Source: Candidatus Omnitrophota bacterium (GTDB taxonomy: Bacteria > Omnitrophota > Gorgyraeia > Duberdicusellales > 4484-171). Taken from it: a stretch of DNA of 64,000 bases. The stretch lies in contig JBAWWL010000009.1 of assembly GCA_037146775.1 (NCBI GenBank), positions 4,575 through 68,574 of the forward strand, given 5' to 3'. Positions 1 to 42,678 of this stretch are shown piece after piece (the stretch's first letter is position 1; each line of letters starts with the position of its first letter). Made by a program: the position numbers and the translations under genes. The notes under the pieces were generated by a model. It saw only the letters and a list, made by a program, of their open reading frames with translations. It ran no database searches and was not told where the DNA came from.

Positions 1-2350
1 ACCAACTTAGCCTTGCCGCCTTTAGATTGATATTCTTCAATATACTTCTTCGCAATATCTCGAGCCGCATTGGCAGCGCCTAAACTTATAAACAAACGCA
101 TCCAGCTATAGGCATCTCGGGCAGTAACGTGCGCGGGCCGGCCGTTTAAGTAATGCCAGATTTTCTCCATAGAACCATTTGCATCTTGTCCATCAAGCAT
201 AACCGGAACACATAATGGGTTCTCATATTCGGTCATGACACGAACCCAGCTCTCAACGGTTTGTTTTGCATTCTGCACAGTTAAATCACCTAAATACTTT
301 AAGTTAAAATCTAAATAACCGCCTGACTGCCGGACAAATTGCACAAGAGGAACAAAAAATTGCTCATCTTGCATTTGAGCTACCGTAAGCCCACTTTTCA
401 CTAAATTAGCCGTAACATGTAATCCTCGGTATTCTTCTAATGGTTGACAAGCCTGTAGTAATTTTTTGTTAAAGGCCTCAAGTTGAACTTGAGCCTGTTG
501 TAAACTTTCCAAAACTGTTGCCGGGTTTAAGGCAGCAAATAGCCTAAAGGCTCGAATCATACTGTTGCAGCTCAAAGAATCTAAACCTCTAATATTTGTT
601 AGCGCTTCTTGCAATAACAAATTCGCTTCTTCTCTGCGGCCGACCTGGACTAACGTTTCGGCGATATGAACAAAAGCCTGCGCTCTATATCCATCAACTT
701 CGCTCCTGCCTACGCTTCTTGTTAAGTTAAGCAATCTGTCCAAAGCACCAGCATTTATCATTTCTTGGCTGATTAATTGAATAACTCTTCCTTGCAACAT
801 ACCATCATTTAACTCTGTAATAACTCTTGCCTCGTTTGTTCTGCGAAATTCAGCAGCCACTACCTGAGCCACTACCAAATATGCCTGGCTATACATATCC
901 CTATAGCTAACCTGCCTGGCCTCCTGTACTGCTTCATCAAATCTTCCTCCCTTAGCTAATTCCCGCGCTAAAGCCATATGCGCTATGGCTCTACCCTGAG
1001 AGCCGCCGGTATTATTAGGAGTCCAGCCTCGATTACTGTAATCTTGATAACCCTCTACTTTGTTTGCCGCTACTGCCAGCCGGGCAATAGCATCCAAAGC
1101 TTTACCTCTTGTTTCATCCTTAAGCTGATTGATAAATTGGAACGTTTCGTTCCATAACCCTAATTGACTTAAAATATTGGCTACCAGGATACAAAAATCT
1201 TCATCGACATGAGAAGATTCTGCTTCCCGAATAGCAGCATCAACATACTGTTTCGCTTGAGTATTGCGTCCTAATAAAATTTCTAATTCTGCTATCAACG
1301 CAAAGACTTCGCTTCTTTTATATTTCAAAGAACTGCCTATGTTCGAAAGCACATCGCGATCAAGTATTCGCCCAGCCTGTGCCTTATCGCCGGATAAGGC
1401 CAACTTCTTGGCTATATATAATAAAGTAGATAGCCGTAAATCAGTTCTCATAATACGACCTGCGCTCCCTAAAGCTTCTTGCATTTTATTTTGATCAGCG
1501 TAAGCTTCACTTAAAGAAATTAGGATAATCTCGTTAGCTTGCATTCTGGTAATCTCATCCGGCCTGTTCCTCGCGACTATCTGCCTGGCTATCAACTTTA
1601 AAACTTTTTCTTGATCATAATCATTTTTCAGAAGTTTAACAATTTTTAATACTGCTTCTGTATCTTTTTCTGCTAAACCTTCGGCTATTTTTATAAGCGT
1701 ATCTGTACGATCGTAATCCTTTGATATTTTTTGCGCTAATGCAATACCTTGATCAGCAGATATCTTTCCGGAAGTGACTAAATACACTAATAAATCTCGG
1801 TAAGAATAAATATCTTTCGCAGAATCAATACCTCTAAGTATAGCCAATGCCTCATCTGTTTTGTTTTGCTCAGCCAAACTAATTGCAAAATAAGCAAGAT
1901 AATGCCCTTTATTTTCTTTTAATCTTCTTGAGCCTGCGCTTTGAATTGCCTGCTGTACCTTTTCTATTCTATTTATAGTTATTGCTGCTCTGGCTATAAT
2001 TGCCGGGTCAGAATAAGGCTCTTCACTTTTCTCAATAGCGCTAAGCAGCATTTCCTCTGCTTCTTGGCTTTTAGCTAATTTTGCATATACCTCCGATATT
2101 CTTGCTCTTATCGGCGCCTCGTTATATCCGGAAATTCTACCCTTGGCTAGTTCTAACAAATCTTGCGCTTTCTGTAAATTTCCTAATTCAGCATACATAT
2201 CAGCCAATTCGACTAATTCATGCGATGCATTACCGTTATATCCGTCACCGCCCATTGTCACCAAAGCAAAAGCCGATAATGTTATTTTTTCTGCAATCTG
2301 GGCTCGAGCCTGAACATTATCTAAAACCGCTTGGCCTCTATCCGAAAAAG
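1..2350 (-). other. TPR/Sel1-like helical repeat region at the C-terminal part of giant gene 2 visible in the window. It continues beyond the window.
   Basis: Hand translation shows a degenerate ~34-40-aa helical repeat pattern (...EALAILRGIDSAKDIYSYRDLLVYLVTSG...). It ends DIAKKYIEEYQSKGGKAKLV at position 1. Confidence 0.45.
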
Positions 2351-5300
2351 ACAGCGCACTCGACGCCTTTCCTGACCTCAAACTCTCCTCTGCCGGGCTC
2401 TCAGTGTACTTTTCCGGATGCTGGTGAAAGTCTACATAGTTAGCATCCATAAAAGTTTTGAATTCTTCCCAAGATAAGGTGTAGCGGGAAAGATAACGCG
2501 GAAGTTCAGTTTGAGATATTTCTCGAGGTTGGGGTAAAAGATGAACACCGCGCTTTTTAGCATCATCAAGATAAATTCTTTGTTTGATTCTTACTGCTAA
2601 GAGATTTTTTCTATCATTATCTTTTTCTAAAATAATATTAAGATAATCTTCATGATAGACTCCTTCTAAAAATAAAGTTTCTTTATAGGGATACGTACGC
2701 GCTGTACCTTTACGTAAAACTAAACTCCAATTGATACTACCTAAAATAATCGGCCAGTCGTTCTGTGCGAGAGCCGCCTGTGCTTCAAAATATGCTGTTC
2801 TGAAAGCAGATGATCTTAAGTATGTCTGGCCAATTTCCTTAGCCATACTTGCCTCACCCTTCTCTACGAAGCGGAACATCCAAGAATAGACCAAAACAGA
2901 ATCTGAAAAATCACCTATTTCCGCAAATGCTTGAACGATATCAAAAGCCTTGTTAAATAATTTTCGTTCAAATAATTTTTCTGCTGCGGCTGAAGCTATA
3001 GACAGAAGCTCTGGATTACCTCTGGCGACACTTCCTAATGCAACGGCTAAATCACTAAGTAGAAAATAATCATTAGCCTTAGCAATGGCGGCGGCCAAGA
3101 AACCTGCCTGCTCCAAGTTAAACTTTGTCCGACTACTGGCTTTTTTGGCAATATGGCGCAAGGCAGACGCAAGCAATTTCATAGTTGCGTCGTCTTGAGA
3201 TTGATTTAAAATAGTAAAAATACCGTCTAGCCCCTGAGGGGTAGTTATTTCAATCCAATCAGTTTGTTGACACGCAGTAGCTAAAGCATCTGCCAGACGA
3301 TATTGTGTCGTTGGTTCTTTTTCTATTGCCAGTTTAGCGATAAGTTCTTGGTATGTTTCGCCTAACGCACTCGACGCTTTTCCTTTACCTCTTGGCCTCA
3401 AATTCTCCTCTGCCGGGCTCTCATTGTATGTTTCCGGGTGCTGGTGGAACTCTTGATAGTGAGTATCCATGAATGTTTTGAATTCTTCCCAAGATAAGGT
3501 GTAGCGGGAAAGATATTGATTGAGGTTTCTCCTGGTGATATCGCTAAAAGGTTGAGCAGGAAGCCCTGGAACTTTTCTCGCTCTGGCATCAGCGTGATAG
3601 ATTCTGTTTTTAAGTTGAACTGCCAGGAAAGATTGTTCCAAAGAATCTACTCCCACCACCACATTAATATATTCTTCAAGGTATGCTCGGTCTTTTAATA
3701 ACTGCCAATCAATACCGTCTAAGATAATCGGCCAGTCGGCTTCGGCCCTTTCAACATCACTGCTATGCAGGTTACCGGAAGAATCATGGAGATATCTTGA
3801 CGCCATATTAATAGCCGCCTGTGGTTCTCCCCAATGTATAAGCATCCGCATCCAAAATTTAAGCTCGTGCGGCTCTGAAGAATCACATGGAAGCATTTGT
3901 CGCAGATGATGTATATATACTGGGGTCGCCATTCGTTGGAATACTTCTTGCACACGAGAATAAACTTGCGGATTATTCGCCGCAATCTGGCCTAAAAGGA
4001 TCAAAATATATTCAGGAGCTAAATCTTTAGCGCGACTTAAAGCTTCAATAATTTCATCCAAATGTAAGTCCTTACTGGCTAATGAGCGATCATTGATTAA
4101 TGCTTCAATAAGTGCTTCTGCGTATTTTTCCCGCGTTTTATCGTCTTGAGTCTGTTTTAAGGCCTCAACTAAACTAAGCACCTGTGTGTGAGAAAGCTTA
4201 AGAGAACGATTTTTGCGTAATACTGCAAATACTAATAGAGAAAGAGAACGAGAAAAACTCTGGCTTTGACCAGGTTGGCTTACAAAAACAAGAAGCCGAT
4301 TCATTTGTCCTTGACTAAATGGTACTAAATGGTCTTCACCACCAAGAGCAGTATAGAGCGCATTAATAAAGCTTTCCCGTACTAACGGATCCTCGGCCTC
4401 TTCAGCGCCAACAAGAAGCCGTTCTAATTGTTCGGGATGGAAACGCGCTGAAGATCCCAAAACGCCGTCAAGACTATCACGCAAGCCAACCGCAGGACTA
4501 TTACGGAAAGTGTCAAATAAACTATCAAATTGTGCTTGCAAAAGTGGTAGTGAGTGATTTTCTCTTAAAACATCGGATAAAACAGAACAAAGGATTTGTC
4601 TTGAATGCATCGTGTTGCCTGATTCGTTGATATTTCTAACAATATGCTCAAGCAATATAGGATTCCTTGCAGCTTGACGAGAAAGCCTTTGGATACGCTT
4701 ATCACCAATCGTTGTTTTAACCATAGACATAAAATTTTTCACTGTTCTCTGAGCATTTTCTTCTTTACGTTGCCTCCACCACGATTGCACCGCAGCTACT
4801 CCCCTTTGTATCGCTTTTCTCAAACTCCAAGATCCCTGAGAGACGGGAGGCTCTTGCTGTAAAGCCGATGATGCACCAGAAGCTTTACCTTTCTTTGGCC
4901 TTAAACTTTCTTCTGTTGGGCTTTCAATATACTTTCCCGGATGCTGGTGAAAGTCTGCATAGTTAGCATCCATAAAAGTTTTGAATTCTTCCCAAGCCTC
5001 GGTGTAACGGGAAAGATAACGCGGAAGTTCTGTTTGGGATATTTCTCGAGGCTTAGGCATAGGCTGCACACCTCTGGTCTTAGCATCATCACAATAAATT
5101 CTTTGCTTGAGCCTTACTGCTAAAAGTTTTTGGACTTCTGAATCGCTATTTGTTACTACTGCGATATAGCCGTCACGATATTCTTTTCTCTCAAAAAGGC
5201 TTCTCTCAATATGATTTAGGATAATCGGCCAGTCAGATTGGCCCTTCGCGGCTTCCTTGCTTAAAAACTCAGGGTTATGAGCTAAATAAATTTCTATTGC

Positions 5301-35400: not shown

Positions 35401-38400
35401 GTCTGAATCCGCCTTGAGCATTGAGCAGGGCCATCGTGCCTGCCTCACTAGTAACTACTCCAGCGTCTAGTAAAGTATTGTGCAATTCTGTGAATGTACA
35501 TGTAGGAAGGGTGATCTTCTGCGCTATGGGAGTCATCTCTGCTAAGACCCCTCTCTCTCCGGCAAAAGACTGCGCCATATCGCTTGTTTGAGAAATAATA
35601 TTGTTTTGTTTATTCCATAAAAATGCTTCTAGTATTTGGTCGGGAGATACCTCGCCACGCGCTACAAGCTGACGCAGCTCTTCGTACGCTCCACGCATAA
35701 GCAGGCAACGAGCATGTAAAATGGGCGATTCCCCTAAATACGGCGCGAGCATTCCATCATTTATGTCTTCGGCCATACGCCAATATCCTTCGACAGCATA
35801 TTCATCATCGAGAAAAACCATTAACAAGCTCCAGGAAGATCCGTATGCGGCTTTTTTAATCAATTTTTCCACTAAAGCATCATATCCGGGAAAACAAAGT
35901 AAATTATCCAGTCTAGTAAAAAACGCGTCTAACCCTTGCGGTCCGGCAACACGCAATATTTCCTTAAATGCCCCTATCGCATACTCTCTATCAATTTGTA
36001 ACAACATAGTAAATGATCCTGCGATCTGGCGTAAAAATCTCTCAATATCAATTCTTTGATTACTAGGCACCTCTTCGTTCCTACGCACTAGTAATTCAAC
36101 CAATTCATTATCAAATGCTACACGCGCCATAGCAAGGTTTCCGCCTGCAATCTCATGAATTACCATACGCTCATTAAAAAGGTTGTCACGAGAAGCGGAA
36201 TATTTAACAGCCTGGACCACAGTATGTAATTGCTCTCGAGTTAAACTTAAGTTCTCATGCGCCTCCAGGAATCTTGGCACAAGATATGCCAATCGTCTAC
36301 ACACTGGATTACCGCTAGTATCCCTTATAGCATTAACAACAAAAGGAAGCTGTGCGGGATTATCATGAAGTGCTCTACCTATAGCTGTGAGAAGCGGATC
36401 GTAGTCATCCCGGGATGGCTCTCGAGTTTTTCTGGCATTTACTAAAAGTGGTATAAGCGTAAGATCTCCCGCGGGTGCATCTTCAAGCACGCCTGCTAAA
36501 TCATGATCATACGACAATCCTTTTTCACCGCATAATACTGTGAGCAAACCTGGGTTATGAGAAAAAGCTTTTTGCAATACCCTAACTAGGGCTTCTCTGC
36601 GTTCTCTTTGATGGACAGTTGTTTCATTAAGCATATCAACAAACACTTGAGTATCAGCTAAAGTAAATGCCTGAGGAGAACGTGAAATCAAATCTTCTAA
36701 GGCTGCTACTAGAAAATTAAATGTCTCCCCTGTTCGGACTTCATTAATTGCAAAAACTAAAGGCCCTGTTTCATCCATAAGCAGCGTAACATCATAGTTA
36801 TTATTCCTGATCGCTCCTAGAGCACCAGAAAGAACGGATTGCCTTACTTTGTCATCTTGCGTTCGATGGGCAGCTTTAAGCAAATACACAATTTGTGCTG
36901 CGCTTGGTTTTATACGAGTGTTATGCACCAAGCTAAGATTTAAGACATCCGCATAGGCTGCTTCCGTCGGACTAGAAACCGTGCCTTGGACTGTTTGATC
37001 ATGCACGGCTCTAAATTTTTCAAACACTAGATCAAATAATTCCGGGTTATGTGCGATAGCGCGGCTATAAGCATGAGAAAGATCAATTCCTCTGGTAATA
37101 GCTTTGTCAAAAGCTTGTGTTTGTTCCGAAGTAATCGTAATGTGCGACCTGTCAAATCCCTTGATAAATATAAATTCTAAAAAACTAATAAATTGTTTAT
37201 TACTACCATCGCGTAGATTATCAAGCGCATTTAATACTTCCGACAGCAACTCATGGTTTCTCGCTAAGGCCTCTCCGATAACTTCCCATGCAAGCTTATA
37301 TCCCAAATCCCGGTCCTTTATTGTTTCTAAAACCTTCATTGTTCCTGATAAAACATCTGGATTATTTACAAGAGCATACTGCAAAACATGAAAATATAAA
37401 TCTCTATGCGCTGCTTCTACGTTTCCGTCACAAAGAGGTTTAATCACTAAAGTTTCAGCTTCTTGTGCGGAAAGCTTAACCTCTCTACTATTTGAAAGGG
37501 CATTATTTACGGCTGCCAATAATCGTAGCTGCACATCCGTTCGCGATTCACTCGCTAAAGCAGAAATTAAGCGTGTGGTGAGATTGGGATATCTTGAAAC
37601 GTGTACTCCTAAACGCCTCGAAGATAACGACTCACCAGCCACAACACCCTCCATGTACATATCAAAAAATCGATTAATGCTCTCATCCTGGTTAGCGTCA
37701 GTCGTAACCGCCGACGACACTACTGATTTAGTTTCCCCTTCTTTACGCTCTGCATCTTGCGCCTTGCGCTGCCCTACATACGCTGCAACTGCATCTATCT
37801 TTTGTTGGCCCGAAGGATGCGTGTTTGTCGCGGTTTCTGATAAAGGAAATGCTTTCTGTAACTCGTTAACAGCAGCTACTGGCGCATTCCAACCGTAAAT
37901 TGACACAACAATGTCTGTGGCAACTCTATCTACCTGCAACTCGATTTCGGGAGTACTTGGCCCATAAAAACGGTGTCCCACTTCATGAGCGATAAGAAAA
38001 GTAAGGGCCTGATCACTTAAAGCACGTACGGCCTCTGGAGTAACAAGCACAATCCAAAGCCGTTCATTTCCAACATACTCAGCGCTCTCCGGCAACCGGG
38101 GTAAAGAAACTTTTATTCCGTCTCCAAGCTCAATGGTTACACTCTTTACATGCTCTTCAAGTGCACCAGGAGAAGTCGATATATAATCGGTATCAATTCC
38201 AATTGCATGTGGCAACGGTGAAAAATGCAATCTTTCGGCTGCCTGAGTAACAGCCTGGAATCTTCCCTCAAGTCTACGATGCCACTCAGCAAACTGCTCA
38301 CGGGATATATATGTGTAAGCCGCTGCGTATCTTTCGCTAAAATATTCTTCGAGACGTTCTGAAACTGTTGACCTAGTCTGCAAACTCTCTCGCACCTCCG

Positions 38401-41400
38401 AACCCATCTTCTTCTCTATAACAGCCTCTTCTTTTTTTTCTACCGCCGATGACACCGCTGGCCTATCTACTTTCACGTCAATACTACCCTGTTTATTTTC
38501 TGGCATAGTCAACGGCGATGCGGCAGTACCCGGTTTAACATCACCCTTTTTATCAAGAGCAACATTTTGAGGAGACCCTACCTTGGAAGTAACTACATTG
38601 GTGACAGTTGATCCTTCTACTCTTTGACTTGTTTGCTGTAAAATATTAGGAGTAGAATCAATTCCCCCGCCAGGAGGAGTTACGCCAAGATAAGGGCTAT
38701 AGGCATTATATTCGAGAGCAAAAAGCTCTGATTCAGCATAGTGAGCTTGCGGCGAATAGTCAGATCCGATAGTATTACCAAATATATCAACCTGATCAAA
38801 ATTTCCTCTAAGAAAAGCTTTGAAAACCTCAGGGCTCATATTGCGTAATGTATCAATTGCAAGCTGTATTTCTTCGGGAATTCCTGAAGAAAATTCTATA
38901 TAAGTTCCGCCATTTGAATTAATCACTCTAAACACGCCTTCGTCATAAGACCACACCTCAAAAGCGTAAGCGACCATCGCCAAGATATCCAATAAATTCG
39001 ATACATCGGATGCTTGCTTACGAATCGTAGCCTTGCTAATTGTGTCGGGATCAAAAGAAAAGAGCGGATTGGAATTTTGCTGCCCAACAATAGTTCCGTA
39101 ACGGCTAGTGGCAGTATATCCTTCTTTCCAAAGTATTCTTAGCAAAGCAAGATTACGTAGCACCATTTCTTTCAACAATCTTCTGCGGTCAGATGAAGAA
39201 CCAATATCAAGGCCTTGATATTGGAAGAATTCACGGTAACGATATGCCTCTTTTTTCCATTGTCTTTTTCTCCCGCGCCGGTATTCTGGATCAAGACTTA
39301 ACTCTTCAATTCTTTCGGGTATGCCGATTTGATATAGCAAAATTTCCATCTCGTTAACAAGATTATCGGGTATTCCTGATCCTTTAAGAACTTTATCAGC
39401 TTCCACGAGACAAAGTTCTCGATCAACAGTAAGCCCCTCCGCTACACCAGGCCATAATCCTTCTGTTTCTTTTCTTCCCACGAGCGCCACCGGAAGCATA
39501 AGCGGTTGAAATTGCGCTCCAGGTTCCAAAAACATCTCAGCGGCTTCCCGGCTTAAGCCTTGATTTTTTAATTCAGCAAATACCGGGTCATCACCGTCAA
39601 AATATTCGTAGAACTTACTTCTCAACCACCCAGCTGCCCCCACATAAGCCAAATTCTCCTGGATTAAATTACCTCCACGCAGCACGCTCGGAGGATTGCC
39701 CTTGCGGAAAGGCGCTCTGATTCCCATACCTCTGGCAAATTCTTGTTCATCAGCCAACCCTGTACCTTTGAAAACAAACGCACAAGGCTTGCCGTTTCTT
39801 GTAAACTTTGTTGCTATAGCGCGATTATGCATAATATTTCTACTGGGCGCGCATCTGACAGGAATAAGATAAATATTGGCATCGTTGCTATCAACACCAT
39901 AGACATTAAGAATTTCTCTGGCAGTGGCCGACAAACTCCTAACTGGTAAAATGAACCTGCGGCTGATTGCGTCGCGGATAAATTCTTGGCTACTGAAAGA
40001 AGACATTTTAGCCGGCACATAGGTAACGGCCTCTCCGGGAAATGCCTCTTGTAATTGGTTGTTATCGTTATGCAGTTCCCCTAAAGCTCGATAAAGCTCG
40101 CGGGCTATCTCTTTAGGCCTTTGGCCTTGTTTAAATTTACCAAGCGCAAAGTCGCCTAGCGCCGAGGAATTGCGATAGAACTGGCCTATCTCCATAAGTT
40201 CGTTAATCGGCACGCCAGCATCTACCATCGCACTGAAACCTTCGGGAGATAATTCATAGGCTTCAACTGCGGACTCTAAAATATCGCTATCATAAATATT
40301 TCGTTGAAATGCAATTTCACAGATATTGACTATCGCATCATGAGTGGCAATAGTACGCCTGCCTACGATACCATTACGCTTCAACGCCTCGTGTAACCGG
40401 ATAACCGCTGCTTCAAAATCGTTGAAACCAATCACCACCCTAGAGTTAGTAGATATACGATTCCTGATCGCGGCTTGAATCAAACCAAAAAAGAACCCGT
40501 CGGAGTACCGTTCATCAATAACTCTTCTGGTGCGTTCAGTAATTTCTATGGTATCAATTCCTTCTGTGCGGCTAAGTTCTTCCAACCACACACCAGCCAC
40601 AATATATGCTCGGTATCGTTCCCTCACGGGAATACTCAAGAAATCTTGAGAAAATCTTGCAAATCTCTTTTGTAGCTGATCTTTGGCTAAACGTATTCTT
40701 TCTTCCTGTTGAACTCTTTCCTCGTGCGCTCGTTTTTTCTTACCCCCGGTTAATCGATCAAACAAGCTAGAGAGAAAAGACTCTGGTTTTACTTCATCTG
40801 CGCTCAAAGGAGAAGAAATACTCTTACCGTCTGATAGATTTTCAACCTTCTCTTCAAAACCATCCACGCCCGTCTCCAGCATCACCTCTAAGTTAAAGCT
40901 CTTGCCTCGGTTGGAAGAGATTACTCGGCTGGGGTCATTGGTGATGGTAAGAGCGCTAGAAGCTTTAGTAAAGTCACAGCCTCCGGAGTAGTAGCGGCGG
41001 TTGATGTTCTGCTGGGTATTGGTATCGAATTCGTCTTTGATGTAGTTGTAGACGCCTTGTCTGTAGGCAGAGAGGTATTGTTTGTAGATCTTCTCTTTGA
41101 TTTGTTTATCGGGGGTATCGATACCTTTAGTCTTTTTCCGGTTAACATAGATCTGACCGACTAAGCTTTCTTTGAGCTGCTTTTTAAACCATACGGAAAG
41201 AATTAAAGAGTTGTAGACCTGCCGTAAAGGAGCGAAGTTTTTGCCTTGATTGACTTCTTTTTCGATCTCAGGCAGGATGAGTTCTTTTAAGACTTCAGAG
41301 GAAACCTTGTTTAAGGCTTTTACTTTGTCTTCTTTGATCTTGGAGGTGCTATATTCCTGGTTATTGAGGTTGTTTTTGAGTGCCAGGTAGTCTTCTTCCA

Positions 41401-42052
41401 GCATGACTTTGAGCTTACTCTCTACCACAAAGGCGCTTGAATCTTCCTGATAGACCACCGCTTTATCCGGGACAATCCAGATCTTGTTGAAGGTATTAAT
41501 CGGTAGTTCAGTGGTACCATAGAGCTGGTAGACTTTCTTGTATACCTTCTCCCAGAACTGTTTACCTAGAGGACTCTCCGGATAAGTGATAGAAGCCATT
41601 AATTGTTTTAAGATGTAGTCTTCGGCAAGTAGGTCTTTACCCAGCTCCGTAATACCCAGTTCCTGGGGGATGACTCGTTCTTTTTCATAGGGTGAGAGGT
41701 TAACCCAGAGGTCTTCTTCCGGTATGGTTAAAGAGGCCAAGAAGTGCTTGATCAGTTTCTCTGAACTCTGTTTTAGTTCTTTTTGGCTAGAAGTACTGTC
41801 TCCGCTATCTAAGATAAAGTCAAACTTGAAAGGCTCATCAGGATAGACCTTGATTCCTTTTAAGACCAGAGGGTTAAAAGCCGGGCTTACTTCCAAAAGC
41901 TGGGTGGGTGCAGGAAGAAAAGAAGCGTAGGTTTTGGGGATAGCCTTATCGATATAACCGGCTAAAGCAGTGATAAAGATCGCTGCTGCCACAAACAGAG
42001 CCACTGCCTTGAAGGGAATACTGGCGCGTTTTTGGTTAATATAGATTATCAT
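23456..42052 (-). CDS. Giant protein 1 (6198 aa). N-terminal signal-anchor, then a multi-enzyme architecture: HEVGH zincin, HD domain, caspase/CHAT-like, HEIIH zincin, GT4 glycosyltransferase, class I SAM methyltransferase, JAB/MPN-like.
   Basis: Complete ORF from the six-frame track. Hydrophobic N-terminus (AVALFVAAAIFITALAGYI). Motifs located on the nucleotide sequence: FLIAHEVGHRF (~37970-37985), AALLHDIGKAL (~34140-34165), ITFSGHA...IVFDACYAHDF (~30890-31050), LIIHEIIHTNF (~29170-29190), REGFALVPLEAASMGVPVIGSDIPG (~26350-26425), ILHVGTGSGWMVAVLADLL (~25702-25765), YHSHFKGSKYPEGPSKLD (~23967-24025). Confidence 0.9.
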   Translation of the reverse strand: MIIYINQKRASIPFKAVALFVAAAIFITALAGYIDKAIPKTYASFLPAPTQLLEVSPAFNPLVLKGIKVYPDEPFKFDFILDSGDSTSSQKELKQSSEKLIKHFLASLTIPEEDLWVNLSPYEKERVIPQELGITELGKDLLAEDYILKQLMASITYPESPLGKQFWEKVYKKVYQLYGTTELPINTFNKIWIVPDKAVVYQEDSSAFVVESKLKVMLEEDYLALKNNLNNQEYSTSKIKEDKVKALNKVSSEVLKELILPEIEKEVNQGKNFAPLRQVYNSLILSVWFKKQLKESLVGQIYVNRKKTKGIDTPDKQIKEKIYKQYLSAYRQGVYNYIKDEFDTNTQQNINRRYYSGGCDFTKASSALTITNDPSRVISSNRGKSFNLEVMLETGVDGFEEKVENLSDGKSISSPLSADEVKPESFLSSLFDRLTGGKKKRAHEERVQQEERIRLAKDQLQKRFARFSQDFLSIPVRERYRAYIVAGVWLEELSRTEGIDTIEITERTRRVIDERYSDGFFFGLIQAAIRNRISTNSRVVIGFNDFEAAVIRLHEALKRNGIVGRRTIATHDAIVNICEIAFQRNIYDSDILESAVEAYELSPEGFSAMVDAGVPINELMEIGQFYRNSSALGDFALGKFKQGQRPKEIARELYRALGELHNDNNQLQEAFPGEAVTYVPAKMSSFSSQEFIRDAISRRFILPVRSLSATAREILNVYGVDSNDANIYLIPVRCAPSRNIMHNRAIATKFTRNGKPCAFVFKGTGLADEQEFARGMGIRAPFRKGNPPSVLRGGNLIQENLAYVGAAGWLRSKFYEYFDGDDPVFAELKNQGLSREAAEMFLEPGAQFQPLMLPVALVGRKETEGLWPGVAEGLTVDRELCLVEADKVLKGSGIPDNLVNEMEILLYQIGIPERIEELSLDPEYRRGRKRQWKKEAYRYREFFQYQGLDIGSSSDRRRLLKEMVLRNLALLRILWKEGYTATSRYGTIVGQQNSNPLFSFDPDTISKATIRKQASDVSNLLDILAMVAYAFEVWSYDEGVFRVINSNGGTYIEFSSGIPEEIQLAIDTLRNMSPEVFKAFLRGNFDQVDIFGNTIGSDYSPQAHYAESELFALEYNAYSPYLGVTPPGGGIDSTPNILQQTSQRVEGSTVTNVVTSKVGSPQNVALDKKGDVKPGTAASPLTMPENKQGSIDVKVDRPAVSSAVEKKEEAVIEKKMGSEVRESLQTRSTVSERLEEYFSERYAAAYTYISREQFAEWHRRLEGRFQAVTQAAERLHFSPLPHAIGIDTDYISTSPGALEEHVKSVTIELGDGIKVSLPRLPESAEYVGNERLWIVLVTPEAVRALSDQALTFLIAHEVGHRFYGPSTPEIELQVDRVATDIVVSIYGWNAPVAAVNELQKAFPLSETATNTHPSGQQKIDAVAAYVGQRKAQDAERKEGETKSVVSSAVTTDANQDESINRFFDMYMEGVVAGESLSSRRLGVHVSRYPNLTTRLISALASESRTDVQLRLLAAVNNALSNSREVKLSAQEAETLVIKPLCDGNVEAAHRDLYFHVLQYALVNNPDVLSGTMKVLETIKDRDLGYKLAWEVIGEALARNHELLSEVLNALDNLRDGSNKQFISFLEFIFIKGFDRSHITITSEQTQAFDKAITRGIDLSHAYSRAIAHNPELFDLVFEKFRAVHDQTVQGTVSSPTEAAYADVLNLSLVHNTRIKPSAAQIVYLLKAAHRTQDDKVRQSVLSGALGAIRNNNYDVTLLMDETGPLVFAINEVRTGETFNFLVAALEDLISRSPQAFTLADTQVFVDMLNETTVHQRERREALVRVLQKAFSHNPGLLTVLCGEKGLSYDHDLAGVLEDAPAGDLTLIPLLVNARKTREPSRDDYDPLLTAIGRALHDNPAQLPFVVNAIRDTSGNPVCRRLAYLVPRFLEAHENLSLTREQLHTVVQAVKYSASRDNLFNERMVIHEIAGGNLAMARVAFDNELVELLVRRNEEVPSNQRIDIERFLRQIAGSFTMLLQIDREYAIGAFKEILRVAGPQGLDAFFTRLDNLLCFPGYDALVEKLIKKAAYGSSWSLLMVFLDDEYAVEGYWRMAEDINDGMLAPYLGESPILHARCLLMRGAYEELRQLVARGEVSPDQILEAFLWNKQNNIISQTSDMAQSFAGERGVLAEMTPIAQKITLPTCTFTELHNTLLDAGVVTSEAGTMALLNAQGGFRLYAHRGQRLIVPVIFDNMNNVFRGSSEHDNAEANYVTHALSTAIVHYALRGGEIKDSHGAKAFHEFDLLFLELIGHKYRAVDTAVTLAFCYVNSPEADRANRDNAVPLPECARKRTQRIDQDTIANSVQKVMVWELAEKRAKQNIYKILQWIAQGRLSKSAIAQARAALEREVNNLRPNDEGGICGLRPAYFQTLFGYLDAQFLDRFQARLEADYQPGQDNQGLLQGLLAEVLVDREVVKATAYNATPIKMMAHPWIGRKITLFDYLKAEVGYLDRDPTTYVYSEHDVSTVKLEDFGQVSPSAAELAVANAQETVKPEQQAIAAINNSGLSQEYKDELSRRILLDGDTRVMQLLVQVAPQLAPIATPRGGGNLLDHTLYTMNSVYEDRTIDAMSLRDSSGAAIPIKRLMVIAALLHDIGKALIRSHSEHEQASVRYIRETLSSQFSEFEINLICYLVGEDIVGRTISKAISPAEADGLLTAGVVSLGIPKGQLFELAISFYCADIGLGRFGRHVFGVGEERRINFWQGRPIIPEGKYSQLDELKKLVVGPDGSASSPAAKQAEDITVKSTASSAIASQGMKKFVADNRNNPLTLPITLVALGAKPSYLLDDSSPANAQQARQLLAHLPGGNVQEIEVTLQESDGHASQKLLFYNPQAIKTEISNHPEVYRVQDGDIITTIKKAFIDSQQGWLLGYPQAQIPAAKIEYTDSPTENWSYVEIWADGQYLFGYVVSRLPLVEMETASLTRYTQPLSELGVKKVAVIYTRSFNNQEQAQIKQFLGRSLAGRVVISSYSENLPAEKIWWLGEGKYIRITEEMLAPAAFPETIRTILARDRQRLSERLEILQADLTKGEDPGLKEEILRREINQISQELAGLERKIGEVRVSSAVSSPLNQEIPSKSIEELRREKSTYQLATIAIREDGARAQEALQAIENLLQDGYIDGVSDLKNIARNKPGLINEGTVGILEVILRKPNVTPQAISFVCETLSVIVTSGVESVVSRKATKVLLDALNTAALDRTSYDSEEIASQVYSQVARTLTEIAIYSNNTNLIDMCFDTFERVLNENRLEAHSYSIATNALLRIVRKKSDRARASTIEAFERNLNASDRGITTHSYSLRAIVDLSQERSDLIARSTVDAVKLHSEKNGDAMRALAAIGGNQYTGQYADECIDEILRVLNIEGDFTVVPVVVAAAVAAQEFARKRSGLFASPTRRQALEHAAASRQRPAAFFGEIAGVYNVLFSQHPDWAEPATVATLEGIMKRDDLANDDYATAVAALTAIRNYNRQMIKTDSLAELLLQLPFRFYGHTFIHHIVYQSQGFKTRTSHMEDEERYEVGLAVYYHLRASGIIPEEASEAEIVQAFDFIIAGRRVVQETLPDDRQSQNELYSSRRTAVNIFHEEMRAEQTRYEALQTSSDMSSGQIHSYVGGSTVPATADVITDVKDAIITHKGPLTITFSGHANREGFALSPSQIISVEELAVWLIERGNLNNVNIVFDACYAHDFVDNLNRTLHNLGVSVDITTLAIAHKNKQAVGGSLRSIERYHSAGQPFTIGQAMRAMRRSDVFIHQVANIFCPRWRLIEAGVQDPFEKRTAADESYRQLPVNVGLTGQPGQVSTGDMEVLASPADTILKETNGVNPIAFSILGSTTFDLSEQTIGIAGTTITVKPVGPRTINGLVRPADNGAMLLVNTQAFSEMLFVLNHGTRSERENYINKLFSTIPNLTGDQRVSLGRIKAHFNQAPPLSREEQNVLVSHILIHEFTECYALRTGNTRIHAHTAAMMAEAEFTQRQESAGFNVQAVRDAFAPIALLRDIRQANTYSYRYPTLQVGQETQPATASSSLQIKDSLVSSPKEDSAIASSPLAQPSRDIAAVVNIYQIMDEYLRVYEENAERVVRNDQFKQETGLDIAAMVRKFLPSSTGKPVSGKETSSVSAEQQSREELDRARARISTLKALMAEDSSPDRLGVFVRALSMVEGGAKITGKNIPAAQLPRDDQVFALHAIKAEAAQNESLQRVFNEEGVLFIPQNSWLTKLLGLRRESGMNIRLSDGNAHIDVILVNDRIVGVPNITKLIIHEIIHTNFTEGVLTVFAKSRQLWAFYHLLLEAVTEELARDVMLRIALRNKELREILGVGAEQVSEDLAEAMLNSAIYGTAEAKVAAAAGKIRNVYRNERVLLHALMKLYENWSDGYEQVVKRFLVQGDESPMKTLFADSWDLAIRIAVELLTIPERDAPYEHQQALRMFAAGINPGQISRLLPIVLKLMRLVKQTDIVPKSKKAEELSEQLTACLYEAARNVFKDFSKNEEFVLDRDGESLIEALIKSAKEVISQRTRLESTDFEVRLYGVDDAFRRSLANESGHDFASSPLEENSLSFNERGMPMNVSTERARVYHGVRGASRVGGDAIDKVKSIIRQKAIMSLKRVDLIDSQDSGIRKLMVFFYEGILRSMRPADLITLEQSNFDLRNYILLNKTSIEANTDPRARHLLGDASLTRMETYGMLNIDDVLRNYCIWVFESEQAVQGYYGREAYFEFDIPQSEFRDQRIIIGEIPLEYARRLVISDGARKEELKELLRGQGLGRIEVVVSPGFASSALTDNSAKLEETPQSKKAPSFVASSAVDSSLSQTPGLDKDFSVGTAGTLLGNDGQVKEARIAELVAHLKSLQSRPTSGTKTYLEQFSLTPTPIENSLLANRTIIQLAPDLKADGISRYAIKLIGMLAARNPGLTQVVFYPDSNKTQETKTLEIGTSKILFIPFAIEEGHELDDLENKISAYVAQDSNVELVVSHLQEYHYGVSDIVTKRNLPFLAYLHNATGFNSSEVWDAAEKYLQPYIFEKLVNNPLVRILTVNPASPEDIRQRFPNARVDWIGPLFEDNNFNSLTDLEREAVSRYLREQYFMRDDDVFILVPNSLDSRKGLPEILDALEGLQFEHFRSKKEFLSGVKVLFVGLGSEQRIHDIEQEIRRRDLTGIAYVAGAVPQEMLRFLYGRANGVLLYSRREGFALVPLEAASMGVPVIGSDIPGVRESIVDRESGLLVPWYADFEQRADALKDGLSRFMSLAPQDRLAWGRRATQHVEQFKPEEWIGRHEETYSETIQDFRQMAETTESAVSSPLAQVELSKKSNDISQSASSAVTATSSQDIFYKNVEDFLSSKKVRLEQIQSILRAMQANPRADFIDMPDIQDAYSLRLPAGYRERALPSGPYLGFVASLLNLKGDEKILHVGTGSGWMVAVLADLLNGGKNSGNGKIYTVEIDPAISRDRQALISPKYQNVEFIRGDAFSELDGIDGIKFDRIIVDGSLPGGISKSLFNRLSQGSGMMVVPVSTGNFSRQPTYAVYRVVRFGPRVFYNSFTQPGWNFEDLRAIPGDILPPEKLETVSSSVISEKTSLTDKSIVSSPIFNRETVEVSFFAQDAAEKVIEAFRDGRVVVLNLKTADAPDLNSANKEIKRTWFKKVKARIENFVHELPWLRPSGNIFGRDIRHPLREMLKNAFFWGNHFNLSLPIGLSIELNDSGKCSKVEVYDTNVVPKPLMVDVSLAHEKDIDLAGATTGTTVIQNIVRYQIFIGKVIDETIQGFKTLAVITPKESAVKKPAEHNTVGDKGTQASSVLSLMEPAKEAFHEEKVSSALNIENDPVAKIFDLRLSQPISRETEWTRIVTPAEALDFHQKWQSSSQGYYAQDYQGKTYNFPLKAWEKMVAWSGRSPDFERKGYFIARSQGDIIEIVDFIPVGSIVMSPRIDNYDKDDSDIEQVNTSGIGTFFPGGERGQILMQRYGINLVDQEILSFESVARGKPGLISMPYHSHFKGSKYPEGPSKLDRKSSKGVDFVYALDSGRGFIFDKNSPSQEVLQNLRSVATQTIGGDVGEETTKDNKTGGIDPSTLLRVNSSESKPGGIDFNPKYLELEVKGSSVKFGRFNIPFDIKKFEGFSFRIINIKAIHNLSSILKTYPVNRDEAQTQSDKVDLALVSHEKYIARKKEDRFESNLYK
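40869..42052 (-). repeat. Copy A of the ~1.18 kb direct repeat (5' coding end of giant gene 1).
   Basis: Same as above. The spurious out-of-frame ORFs 22325..22552 and 40921..41148 in the track are near-identical, which independently marks the duplication. Confidence 0.9.
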
Positions 42053-42678
42053 TTACTGATATAAATACATAATATATAGAAAAAAATAAGAGTAGATTCT
42101 ATAACTGTGCCCATAATTTAAAATATATATAATATATTTAGAAGATATACCATATAGTGATACCATTTTTTTGTTTTTTAAGACCATAGAATTTGCCCAA
42201 AAATAAGGATTTTTTGTAAACGATTACAAACTCTTATTTCGCAGTAAACGTAAAGACTTCCGTATTTTTATGTATCTAAAAAATGGGAAAAAATTGTAAG
42301 AGTGATTTTAGAAAATACTCGATGGCGTTTTTTTGCCCAAAAAGCTCTAAATACCGGCGATAATGGCTGCAATTTGAACGCACAGGAAAGAAAAGGGTAT
42401 TTTTTAGCGGAATAAAAACCATAAATTATGAATGGCTAAAAACTTCAAGAAAAGTTACGTAAAGAGAAGCGGGTTTTTCCTAAAAAAAGCGGAGATATCC
42501 TGAAAAAAATATACCGAGATATAACATGAAAGCAGTTTATAACTATATATAGATTAAGCAGTTACGAGATGTATTGTCCGCTATATGTAATACGCATTTT
42601 ATACGGTATAAAGAATCCTACGTATTACGGCTTTGACAGAAACTAAATGAGGCATGTAAGCGATGTTGGGTAAGAAAA
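42053..42678 (-). promoter_or_regulatory. A 625-bp AT-rich non-coding region upstream of the giant-gene operon. This is the presumed promoter and leader. No canonical Shine-Dalgarno sequence precedes the ATG.
   Basis: No ORF is present. The region is very AT-rich (tatatataatatattt and similar), with a long run of TA-rich sequence immediately 5' of the 42052 start. ruvB ends at 42679 on the same strand. Confidence 0.4.

What the first reader, a model, noticed from the sequence alone, without database searches (positions are those of the whole stretch)
1..42678. Tandem giant genes under one AT-rich upstream region occupy two thirds of the window
A 625-bp AT-rich leader (42053-42678) precedes an 18.6-kb gene (6198 aa). 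That gene is followed directly by a second gene with more than 23.4 kb in the window, and it is still open at the edge. No terminator, promoter gap or other gene intervenes, so this looks like a single operon of more than 42 kb encoding two membrane-anchored megaproteins. Genes this large are rare in bacteria. As inference only: low-GC lineages such as candidate phylum Omnitrophota are known for giant genes.
Basis: partly seen in the sequence, partly recalled or inferred. Interest (0 to 1): 0.85.

Follow-up and report, generated by a model that had tools for sequence, protein, structure and literature searches.

The report
Two tandem giant Omnitrophota genes
Two real, back-to-back giant genes from an uncultured Omnitrophota bacterium start with the same export-signal-plus-"head" module, which heads thousands of proteins in this phylum; the second gene carries a chain of dynein/midasin-like ATPase modules, so this is a new member of a published kind with undescribed parts.

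Summary
Gene 1 (42052..23456, minus strand, 6,198 aa) is complete and identical to GenBank MEI8350111.1 from a Candidatus Omnitrophota MAG. Gene 2 starts at 23456, its ATG overlapping gene 1's TAA (TAATG), and stays open for 7,818 codons to the window edge. A 626-bp region of 30% GC lies upstream.

Giant genes in Omnitrophota are already published, so the kind is known. Several details are not in the papers I could search:

- Both genes open with a near-identical 1.2-kb cassette. All 21 differences across its 381 protein-identical codons are synonymous.
- The cassette encodes a Sec-type signal peptide plus a ~320-aa "head" with no Pfam, NCBIfam or PDB match. The head defines at least 8,385 protein clusters and is always N-terminal.
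- Gene 1 and most complete family members end in a conserved ~70-aa "tail".
- The bodies are unrelated. Gene 1 is an orphan carrying GT4 and PCMT-like domains. Gene 2 has at least three concatenated MoxR-type AAA+ modules in a dynein-like arc, then HExxH and a MIDAS-VWA domain.

"Membrane-anchored" and "repeats" are not supported. Co-transcription is plausible but untested. Whether the proteins work outside or inside the cytoplasm is unresolved.

The parts
42053..42678 (-). 626-bp AT-rich non-coding region between ruvB and gene 1; presumed promoter/leader
   Evidence: GC 0.296 vs 0.423 for the window. No Rfam family, no ORF >48 aa. No enrichment of sigma-70-like sites and no terminator.
23456..42052 (-). 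Gene 1, complete, 6,198 aa (= GenBank MEI8350111.1)
   Evidence: ORF list and frame scan. 100% identity to P0121.
41924..42052 (-). Gene 1 aa 1-43: Sec-type signal peptide (MIIYINQKRASIPFK / AVALFVAAAIFITALAG / YIDKAIPKTYA), predicted cleavage after A43
   Evidence: Kyte-Doolittle scan. Family-wide n/h/c layout and small-x-Ala motif in 217/222 members. Coordinates checked. Cleavage itself is inferred.
40973..41923 (-). Gene 1 'head' domain (aa ~44-360), unannotated Omnitrophota family
40844..42057 (-). Copy A of the ~1.2-kb direct repeat (head cassette, nt -5 to +1209 of gene 1)
   Evidence: Pairwise DNA alignment. Proteins identical aa 1-381; 21/21 differences synonymous; 812-nt perfect run at 40983-41794.
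22248..23461 (-). Copy B of the head cassette (signal peptide + head of gene 2)
   Evidence: Same analyses. The perfect run lies at 22387-23198.
26201..26737 (-). Gene 1 GT4-family glycosyltransferase domain (aa 5106-5284)
   Evidence: Pfam Glycos_transf_1 at 66.1 bits, E 3.6e-18. NCBIfam GT4 models and PDB GlgA/GT4 hits.
25436..25957 (-). Gene 1 PCMT-like SAM methyltransferase domain (aa 5366-5539)
   Evidence: Pfam PCMT at 45.6 bits, E 9.1e-12. NCBIfam and PDB isoaspartyl methyltransferases.
23546..23758 (-). Gene 1 C-terminal 'tail' module (aa 6099-6169; ..GGIDFNPKYLELEVKG..FEGFSFRIINIKAIHNLSSIL..)
   Evidence: Conserved C-terminal block in the alignment of head proteins. Regex and own HMM (E 2.9e-15): all 78 hits lie at ORF C-termini.
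23454..23458 (-). TAATG junction: gene 1 stop overlaps gene 2 start by one base
   Evidence: Sequence read.
3..23456 (-). Gene 2, at least 7,818 aa, 3' end beyond the window
   Evidence: Frame scan. Not itself found in the protein collection.
16797..21458 (-). Gene 2 HEAT/ARM-like helical repeat region (aa ~667-2220)
   Evidence: Pfam HEAT_2. Designed armadillo proteins in PDB. Multiple BLASTP matches to the repeats of P0123.
7497..16934 (-). Gene 2 conserved core (aa 2175-5320), shared at 37-47% identity with other Omnitrophota giants
11955..15017 (-). Gene 2 aa 2814-3834: three consecutive AAA+ modules (P-loop, degenerate, P-loop), each with a lid, arranged as in the dynein ring
14805..14828 (-). 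Walker A of AAA+ module 1 (GLPGGGKT, aa 2877-2884)
   Evidence: Pfam AAA_5 at 27.9 bits against a cut-off of 22.
12681..12704 (-). Walker A of the second P-loop module (GDPGGGKT, aa 3585-3592)
10383..10406 (-). Walker A of the third P-loop module (GETGSGKT, aa 4351-4358)
   Evidence: hhalign shows the three P-loop modules resemble one another.
8964..8978 (-). Invariant HELGH (HExxH, zincin-like) motif, aa 4827-4831
   Evidence: Motif only; no family match.
7761..8180 (-). VWA domain with MIDAS motif DASGS (8148-8162), aa 5093-5232
   Evidence: Pfam VWA at 28.8-32 bits against a cut-off of 23.8. Motif checked.
2379..6170 (-). Second HEAT-like repeat region of gene 2 (aa ~5763-7026)
   Evidence: Pfam HEAT_2 at 46.7 bits. 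Matches to P0123 repeats.

Best explanation
The region holds two genuine, adjacent giant genes on the chromosome of a Candidatus Omnitrophota bacterium, set among housekeeping genes. They are most likely transcribed together from the AT-rich upstream region and translationally coupled through the TAATG overlap (inferred).

Both are extreme-length members of one phylum-wide protein family built as signal peptide, ~320-aa 'head', variable cargo, and ~70-aa C-terminal 'tail' (shown for gene 1; gene 2's end lies outside the window). The shared 403-aa N-terminal cassette is kept nearly identical between the two genes. The likely cause is gene conversion under strong purifying selection.

My reading is that the signal peptide sends both proteins through the Sec pathway. 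The common head, and probably the tail, then direct them to the same envelope or surface destination or secretion route, much as conserved trafficking domains do in polymorphic secreted-protein families (inferred).

The cargoes differ. Gene 1 carries a glycosyltransferase and a protein-methyltransferase-like domain in an otherwise orphan 5,700-aa body. Gene 2 carries helical-repeat scaffolds around a MoxR/dynein/midasin-type chain of AAA+ modules (three shown, six inferred), followed by an HExxH motif and a MIDAS-VWA domain. That layout is a single-chain AAA+/VWA machine expected to grip a ligand through MIDAS and remodel it with ATP (inferred from NorQ-NorD, CbbQ-CbbO and midasin).
For: - Reality and layout of the genes.
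- Housekeeping context, all on the minus strand (ruvB, scpA, trpS, infB, nusA, rimP, proS, ispG, rseP, dxr, cdsA, uppS).
- Source: gene 1 is 100% identical to MEI8350111.1 of a Candidatus Omnitrophota MAG.
- No terminator or gap at the junction. About 6 of 17 consecutive head-gene pairs elsewhere also abut within 10 nt or overlap.
- Head family: at least 1,201 hits. 8,385 clusters at 50% identity, with the match starting at residue 1-64 in all of the top 150 and protein lengths of 420-5,312 aa. At least 585 loci in GTDB species representatives; nearly all of the top 80 are labelled Omnitrophota, a genus of that phylum, or 'uncultured Planctomycetales', with several copies per genome.
- Signal-peptide layout in 217/222 members.
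- Tail.
- Identical heads with 21/21 synonymous differences and an 812-nt perfect tract. Heads of other tandem pairs are mostly 45-75% identical, with one pair at 92%.
- Cargo domains.
- Gene 2 core family and motifs.
- Structure of three AAA+ modules and dynein/MoxR/midasin matches.
Against: - Export conflicts with the cargo. AAA+ ATPases, a SAM methyltransferase and an NDP-sugar glycosyltransferase need cytoplasmic cofactors, as do the family's PGM, UDPGP, PGI, ROK, histidine-kinase, GGDEF and DnaJ domains.
- Signal-peptide cleavage and localisation were inferred from motifs only. No SignalP or DeepTMHMM run and no experiment was available.
- hhalign did not detect the putative degenerate AAA+ modules, so the count of six rests on one modelled example plus motifs.
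- A profile of the core finds no midasin or dynein by sequence in the PDB.
- No D/E-rich segment precedes the MIDAS domain.
- Co-transcription is untested. Neither gene has a Shine-Dalgarno motif.
Confidence: 0.55

Rival explanations
1. [quoted passage not shown] They would work there as membrane-tethered multi-enzyme or ATPase scaffolds, the 'TM-only, cytoplasmic-domain' reading of Nielsen & Lui 2026.
For: The cargo domains are cytoplasm-type and nucleotide-dependent: GT4 and PCMT, AAA+ ATPases, and PGM/UDPGP/PGI/ROK/HATPase_c/GGDEF/DnaJ in other family members. In the window's proteins the stretch between the h-region and the putative cleavage site is unusually long and charged (YIDKAIPKTYA).
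Against: The positive-inside rule points the other way. The N-flank carries a mean net charge of +3.9 against +0.07 for the C-flank, and the N-flank exceeds the C-flank in 217/222 members. The h-region has a median of only 16 residues, short for a stable span. A Pro and a conserved small-x-Ala motif follow it, which a plain anchor has no reason to keep.
Confidence: 0.3
2. The near-identity of the two heads reflects a very recent duplication of the 5' cassette (or of a whole gene whose body was then replaced), not ongoing gene conversion between old paralogues.
For: Identity starts sharply about 5 nt before the ATG and ends within ~60 nt around codon 400, as a duplication breakpoint would. One other tandem pair (L064) also has 92%-identical heads.
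Against: The pattern is mosaic: an 812-nt perfect tract flanked on both sides by stretches with 8 and 13 synonymous differences. That fits a conversion tract laid over an older, already diverged pair better than a single event. Tandem head genes elsewhere are old paralogues, mostly 45-75% identical.
Confidence: 0.3
3. The arrangement is an assembly artefact (a chimeric join through the 1.2-kb repeat), or the ORFs are not real genes.
For: A 1.2-kb near-identical repeat can confuse short-read assemblers. I found no independent assembly of the junction.
Against: - Two direct repeats with unique flanks allow only one linear order.
- The two copies differ at 21 sites, all synonymous, which an artefact would not produce.
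- Open frames of 6,198 and 7,818 codons have chance probabilities of e^-409 and e^-516, and show coding GC periodicity.
- Gene 1 runs from a canonical head to a canonical tail.
- The gene 2 core is 37-47% identical over ~3,100 aa to proteins from other assemblies.
Confidence: 0.03

Closest known systems
Omnitrophota giant ORFs / 'Archaeovorin-type' and 'multi-enzyme' giant proteins (West-Roberts et al. 2023, bioRxiv 10.1101/2023.11.21.568195; Seymour et al. 2023, PMC10066038; Nielsen & Lui 2026, bioRxiv 10.64898/2026.06.07.730766)
   Same: Same phylum. Very long, mostly unannotated ORFs with scattered glycosyltransferase, methyltransferase, HEAT, AAA_5 and HD-type domains, and an N-terminal signal or hydrophobic segment. 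The bodies are sequence-unique (papers read).
   Different: Shorter than those catalogues' thresholds (>30,000 aa, or >=10,000 aa). Only one strongly hydrophobic segment rather than many TM helices. No SecA-DEAD, C39, dockerin or TSP3 domains. Term searches and the sections I read of those papers mention no shared N-terminal head, C-terminal tail, tandem head genes or concatenated AAA+ arc.
Midasin (Rea1/Mdn1) and dynein heavy chain: six AAA+ modules in one polypeptide
   Same: MoxR-clade AAA+ modules concatenated in one chain and predicted to lie in a dynein-like arc, with active and degenerate modules interleaved. As in midasin, a MIDAS-VWA domain follows the AAA+ array.
   Different: Bacterial, and embedded in a protein of at least 7,818 aa behind a signal peptide. 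About 10-13% identity in the structural alignments and no sequence-level hit. Only three modules were modelled. No D/E-rich segment. An HExxH motif sits between the AAA+ array and MIDAS. HEAT-like arrays flank the core instead of the midasin or dynein linker. Zhang & Aravind 2012 (PMC3495828) place the origin of the six-module chain early in eukaryotes.
Bacterial MoxR-type AAA+ / VWA pairs (NorQ-NorD, CbbQ-CbbO, RavA-ViaA)
   Different: Here the AAA+ modules are fused in tandem in one chain instead of forming a homohexamer, and the VWA domain is on the same polypeptide.
Secreted-protein families with a conserved trafficking domain and variable cargo (TpsA/CdiA with the TPS domain; T9SS cargo with a C-terminal domain; PE/PPE) - from my own knowledge
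   Same: A signal peptide followed by a conserved N-terminal module, highly variable and often very large cargo, many paralogues per genome, frequent tandem arrangement, and a conserved C-terminal module.
   Different: The head is predicted as mixed alpha/beta, not a beta-helix, and matches no solved fold. No TpsB/Omp85-type or other conserved partner gene lies nearby. The cargo is cytoplasm-type enzymes.

Membership tests
Omnitrophota giant genes (West-Roberts 2023 / Seymour 2023 / Nielsen & Lui 2026) | Encoded in an Omnitrophota genome | tested here: met
   Gene 1 is identical to MEI8350111.1, 'MAG... [Candidatus Omnitrophota bacterium]'. Relatives of the head and of the core are nearly all labelled Omnitrophota.
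Omnitrophota giant genes (West-Roberts 2023 / Seymour 2023 / Nielsen & Lui 2026) | Length threshold (>20 kb ORF in Seymour; >=10,000 aa in Nielsen & Lui; >30,000 aa / >90 kb in West-Roberts) | tested here: inconclusive
   Gene 1 is 18.6 kb / 6,198 aa and fails all three. Gene 2 is at least 23.45 kb / 7,818 aa, so it passes Seymour's threshold; the others cannot be judged because its end is outside the window.
Omnitrophota giant genes (West-Roberts 2023 / Seymour 2023 / Nielsen & Lui 2026) | Numerous transmembrane regions | tested here: not met
   A Kyte-Doolittle scan finds one strong segment (aa 16-34) per protein plus one borderline segment each. DeepTMHMM was not available.
Omnitrophota giant genes (West-Roberts 2023 / Seymour 2023 / Nielsen & Lui 2026) | Divergent SecA-DEAD domain / C39 peptidase near the N-terminus (most full-length giants) | tested here: not met
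   No such Pfam hits in either protein at E <= 0.01.
Omnitrophota giant genes (West-Roberts 2023 / Seymour 2023 / Nielsen & Lui 2026) | Archaeovorin-type domain set (glycosyltransferase, methyltransferase, HEAT, AAA_5, HD ...) | tested here: met
   GT4 and PCMT, plus a weak HD hit, in gene 1. HEAT, AAA_5 and VWA in gene 2.
Midasin/dynein class (single-chain AAA+ ring) | AAA+ modules of the MoxR/AAA_5 clade | tested here: met
Midasin/dynein class (single-chain AAA+ ring) | Several AAA+ modules concatenated in one polypeptide and packed as a ring arc | tested here: met
Midasin/dynein class (single-chain AAA+ ring) | Exactly six modules closing a ring | tested here: inconclusive
   Three P-loop modules are found. 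One intervening degenerate module is seen in the model. Two more are inferred only from AAA_5-like motifs. hhalign does not detect them.
Midasin/dynein class (single-chain AAA+ ring) | C-terminal MIDAS (VWA) domain (midasin) | tested here: met
   Pfam VWA at 28.8-32 bits (cut-off 23.8). DxSxS appears as DASGS at aa 5099.
Midasin/dynein class (single-chain AAA+ ring) | D/E-rich segment before MIDAS and detectable sequence homology to midasin | tested here: not met
   No 60-aa window has >=35% D/E. A profile of the core finds no midasin or dynein in PDB sequences. Only a weak Midasin AAA-lid hit appears (E 0.02). So gene 2 works like midasin, but membership is not established.
Two-partner secretion (TpsA) proteins | N-terminal TPS beta-helix domain and an adjacent TpsB (Omp85) gene | tested here: not met
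   The head is predicted as mixed alpha/beta with no PDB match. No Omp85-type gene lies in the flank, and none recurs near 81 head loci.
Sec-exported proteins (signal peptidase I substrates) | Positive n-region, h-region of 7-15+ residues, small residues at -3/-1 | tested here: met
   Family statistics and the window sequence ..IPKTYA|SF... Actual cleavage and export are not testable here.
Operon (one transcript) | Same strand, no terminator, overlapping stop/start | tested here: met
Operon (one transcript) | Co-transcription | not testable with these tools
   No expression data are available.

The most novel reading that the evidence does not exclude
The signal peptide, ~320-aa head and ~70-aa C-terminal tail (GGIDLNP...GFxPVIINIxPIxNLPLLLG) may mark a previously undescribed, Omnitrophota-wide protein sorting or secretion system. 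It would deliver thousands of different cargoes, from 0.4 kaa enzymes to giants of more than 7.8 kaa, including a dynein/midasin-like single-chain AAA+/MIDAS machine, to the cell surface or into host or prey cells. This would explain why exported proteins carry ATP-, SAM- and NDP-sugar-dependent domains.
Probability: 0.25. Interest if true: 0.85.

Novelty: new member of a known kind. Interest (0 to 1): 0.55.

Why it matters
Giant genes are a signature of Omnitrophota, ultra-small and probably host-dependent bacteria. Their function and cellular location are open questions in all three papers I read.

This locus offers handles that make those questions testable:

- A conserved head and tail can be used to enumerate, classify and experimentally tag a family of at least 8,385 protein clusters. 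That family links ordinary-sized enzymes to the giants.
- The family shows a clear contradiction between export signals and cytoplasm-type cargo.
- The ~3,100-aa gene 2 core is predicted with high confidence to contain concatenated MoxR-type AAA+ modules in a dynein-like arc plus a MIDAS domain. If it closes into a single-chain ring, it is a bacterial counterpart of the midasin/dynein design. Zhang & Aravind 2012 assign the origin of that design to early eukaryotes.

The two heads have only synonymous differences over the 381 codons where the proteins are identical. This is direct evidence that both giant genes are translated and under selection.

Tried and rejected
- Extending gene 2: exact 53-mer and 44-mer searches of GTDB genomes and JGI metagenomes found nothing. 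Gene 2 is not in the protein collection. Both giants exceed the 5,000-aa limit of the contig look-up, so gene 2's 3' end and tail remain unknown. A trpS look-up failed. An ispG look-up returned only a 7.6-kb Logan contig of the flank.
- Internal repeats or misassembly of repeats: rejected, because the bodies are unique sequence.
- Conserved partner gene next to head genes: none found. The best candidate is an ABC ATPase in 12/81 loci.
- Gene 1 body: only one partial relative among 5.8 billion proteins and no PDB hit for aa 436-3100.
- Degenerate AAA+ modules by profile-profile comparison: not detected.
- Midasin homology by sequence profile: not detected.
- Regulatory RNA or a small ORF in the AT-rich leader: none. 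Sigma-70-like promoter: not enriched.
- Literature: no mention of the head or tail motifs, of a conserved N-terminal module in Omnitrophota, or of bacterial midasin-like proteins in the searchable library.

Full report
**1. The observation**

The window contains a 6,198-codon ATG..TAA ORF at 23456..42052 on the minus strand. A second minus-strand frame stays open from 23456 down to base 3, 7,818 codons without a stop. With the local base composition (stop probability 0.064 per codon), such open frames have chance probabilities of e^-409 and e^-516. Both show coding-type GC periodicity (GC1/2/3 about 0.53/0.39/0.35), like infB, nusA and ispG in the flank.

Gene 2's ATG shares one base with gene 1's TAA (TAATG at 23454-23458). 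No terminator-like hairpin and no other ORF intervenes.

Upstream of gene 1 lie 626 non-coding bases (42053-42678) at 29.6% GC, against 42.3% for the window. That stretch has no credible Rfam match, no ORF above 48 aa, and no excess of sigma-70-like sites.

Two details need correcting. The genes are not repetitive: self-BLASTP finds nothing and TRF finds a single 126-bp x2.4 array. Each protein also has only one strongly hydrophobic segment, aa 16-34.

**2. Source and context**

Everything from 42679 to 64000 is on the same strand and is housekeeping. It includes ruvB, scpA, trpS, infB, nusA, rimP, proS, a PilT/T2SSE-family ATPase, ispG, rseP, dxr, cdsA, uppS, an OmpA-family gene, tRNA-Ser, tadA, a GGDEF-HD protein, a permease, cheY and cheB.

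Gene 1 is 100% identical to GenBank MEI8350111.1, 'MAG: glycosyltransferase [Candidatus Omnitrophota bacterium]', on a 133,192-bp contig.

Giant ORFs are a published hallmark of this phylum (West-Roberts et al. 2023; Seymour et al. 2023; Nielsen & Lui 2026). The kind of object is therefore known.

**3. A shared head cassette**

The two proteins align only over their first ~403 residues; the rest is unrelated. At the DNA level, identity begins about 5 nt before the ATG, is ~99% for 1,075 nt, and decays to noise by nt ~1,200.

The proteins are identical for 381 residues. The 21 nucleotide differences in those codons are all synonymous, and an 812-nt perfectly identical tract sits in the middle. 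Assembly noise would not produce this. It shows two distinct loci, both under purifying selection at the protein level. The mosaic pattern fits a recent gene-conversion tract over an older paralogous pair.

In 15 other loci with two or three tandem head genes, the heads are mostly 45-75% identical, with one pair at 92%. The window's pair is unusually homogenised.

**4. What the head is**

The family is large:
- at least 1,201 clusters at 90% identity;
- 8,385 clusters at 50% identity at E <= 1e-3, and 6,797 at 1e-30;
- at least 585 loci in GTDB species representatives. Nearly all of the 80 best are labelled Omnitrophota, a genus of that phylum, or 'uncultured Planctomycetales', with several copies per genome.

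In all 150 best representatives the match starts at residue 1-64, and the proteins range from 420 to 5,312 aa. In fetched loci the ORFs run from ~360 aa to more than 3,700 aa, the upper figure being limited by the flank length. The head is thus an N-terminal module shared by ordinary-sized proteins and giants alike.

**5. Signal peptide rather than anchor**

Across 222 family members the N-terminus has a positive n-region (mean net charge +3.9, against +0.07 after the hydrophobic stretch; N-flank greater than C-flank in 217). The h-region has a median of 16 residues, followed by a Pro and a conserved small-x-Ala motif (..YAQ..FAQ) just before the conserved LNLPxPG.

This is the layout of a cleavable Sec signal peptide. 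In the window it reads ..AIPKTYA|SFLPAP. The claim of 'membrane-anchored megaproteins' is therefore not supported by sequence. Cleavage itself could not be tested.

**6. A conserved tail**

Aligning 34 head proteins revealed a second conserved block at their C-termini. Its consensus is GGIDLNPANLDLETKGDGNGVKLPLDQQPIENMNIEGFVPVIINITPITNLPLLLGLSEEEE.

- A regex finds it within the last 170 residues of 48 of 73 complete head ORFs.
- An HMM built from these tails gives 78 hits in the fetched loci plus the window, all at ORF C-termini. Most non-head hits are 5'-truncated ORFs or a separate ORF directly downstream of a head ORF.
- Gene 1 carries it at aa 6099-6169 of 6,198 (E 2.9e-15).

Gene 1 is thus a canonical head-cargo-tail protein with a 5,700-aa cargo. 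Neither motif string appears in the searchable literature. Term searches and the sections I read of the giant-gene papers do not mention them.

**7. The cargoes**

*Gene 1.* The body is an orphan. Among 5.8 billion proteins, only one other sequence matches at E < 1e-10, and only over aa 647-1143. It contains a GT4 glycosyltransferase domain (66 bits) and a PCMT-like SAM methyltransferase domain (46 bits) near the C-terminus. There is also a weak HD hit and two HExxH motifs.

*Gene 2.* HEAT/ARM-like arrays (aa ~667-2220 and ~5763-7026) flank a ~3,150-aa core (aa 2175-5320). The core is 37-47% identical to other Omnitrophota giants annotated AAA_5, VWA or MoxR-like. One of them, P0130, also begins with the head. 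The core holds:
- three Walker A motifs (aa 2877, 3585, 4351) with matching Walker B, sensor-1 and T/SPR sensor-2 motifs;
- an invariant HELGH at aa 4827;
- a VWA domain with the MIDAS motif DASGS at aa 5099.

So gene 2 encodes MoxR-clade AAA+ modules concatenated in one chain in a dynein-like arc, followed by a MIDAS domain. Motifs suggest two further degenerate modules, six in all, but hhalign does not confirm them. A sequence profile finds no midasin or dynein, and there is no D/E-rich segment. Gene 2 works like midasin or a fused MoxR-VWA system; membership in the midasin family is not established.

**8. How it most likely works**

*Shown.* There are two abutting genes. They share a signal peptide plus head that is kept protein-identical. 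Gene 1 has the tail. The cargoes differ.

*Inferred.* The genes are transcribed together from the AT-rich leader and translationally coupled. About a third of consecutive head-gene pairs elsewhere also abut within 10 nt. The Sec pathway exports both proteins. The head, and probably the tail, act as common targeting or anchoring modules. This is analogous to the conserved trafficking domains of TpsA/CdiA, T9SS cargo or PE/PPE families (from my own knowledge), although the head is not a TPS domain and no partner gene is conserved nearby. Gene 2's AAA+/MIDAS core would bind a ligand through MIDAS and remodel it with ATP, as NorQ-NorD, CbbQ-CbbO and midasin do.

*The main difficulty.* The export signals conflict with the cargo. 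Both the cargo here and that in 34 other family members is cytoplasm-type and nucleotide-dependent: PGM, UDPGP, PGI, ROK, HATPase_c, GGDEF and DnaJ. Either the proteins act in an ATP-containing target such as a host or prey cell, or the N-terminal segment is an uncleaved anchor with the body in the cytoplasm, against the positive-inside rule. I favour export (about 0.55 against 0.3), but this cannot be settled with these tools.

**9. Novelty and score**

Giant genes in Omnitrophota are known, and gene 1 is already deposited, annotated simply as 'glycosyltransferase'. As stated, the finding is a new member of a known kind.

I could not find the following in the literature available here: the head-cargo-tail architecture and its size, the synonymous-only homogenised heads, and the dynein-like concatenated AAA+/MIDAS core. 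Zhang & Aravind 2012 place the origin of the six-module AAA+ chain early in eukaryotes, so a bacterial single-chain ring would be noteworthy. From memory, prokaryotic 'MDN1-like' annotations (COG5271) exist, so I do not claim priority.

Interest is 0.55. The most novel reading not excluded is a new Omnitrophota-wide sorting or secretion system marked by the head and tail: probability about 0.25, interest about 0.85 if true.

Noticed in passing
P0122, P0129, P0131 (relatives fetched, sequences): A second, different conserved N-terminal module of ~550 aa (motif ..IHIQDAHCNYYAQ.., later ..GGFH..N..) heads other Omnitrophota giants, including the only relative of the gene 1 body. Giants in this phylum seem to use a small set of alternative 'heads'.
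   Followed up: no
L001 10001-13425 (GCA_964629655.1 contig CAZVQU010000001.1); also L064, L010, L079, L009, L062: Head and tail can lie on two adjacent genes. A 744-aa head+HD protein (P0014) is followed 14 nt later by a 391-aa gene that ends in the tail. This could be a split gene, a frameshift or a two-chain version.
   Followed up: partly
window 50422-51672 (-): A 416-aa PilT/T2SSE-family secretion ATPase sits alone between proS and ispG, 8.4 kb upstream of gene 1. Published work reports T2SS/T4P genes near Omnitrophota giant genes, but here it is embedded in a housekeeping run. The same neighbours appear in a Logan contig.
   Followed up: no
81 head-gene loci (L001, L004-L083): An ABC-transporter-type ATPase gene recurs within 10 kb of head genes in 12 of 81 loci. 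No other neighbour family recurs in more than 7.
   Followed up: no
window 20035-20340: A 126-bp tandem repeat, 2.4 copies at 80% identity, inside the HEAT-like region of gene 2 (42-aa unit). It is the only tandem array in the 42 kb of giant-gene sequence.
   Followed up: no
window 23546-23758 (gene 1 tail) and family tails: The tail begins with an invariant Gly-Gly preceded by charged residues. C39 (double-glycine) peptidase domains are reported as common in Omnitrophota giants, so this could be a processing site. This is speculation only.
   Followed up: no
window 42053-42082 and 23457-23486 (30 nt upstream of each giant gene): Neither giant gene has a Shine-Dalgarno-like motif, although several flank genes do (ompA-family AAGGAGG, the 114-aa ORF GAGGAGG, nusA).
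   Followed up: no
window 13888-14661 (+): A 257-aa ATG ORF antisense to gene 2, within the AAA+ core region. It is most likely a chance ORF in a long coding region.
   Followed up: no
P0123, P0124, P0126, P0127, P0130: Relatives of the gene 2 core carry a repeated motif, YKLPW..F...MD..YDEFH.NPEKF, at the ends of helical-repeat blocks. It is absent from gene 2 itself.
   Followed up: no
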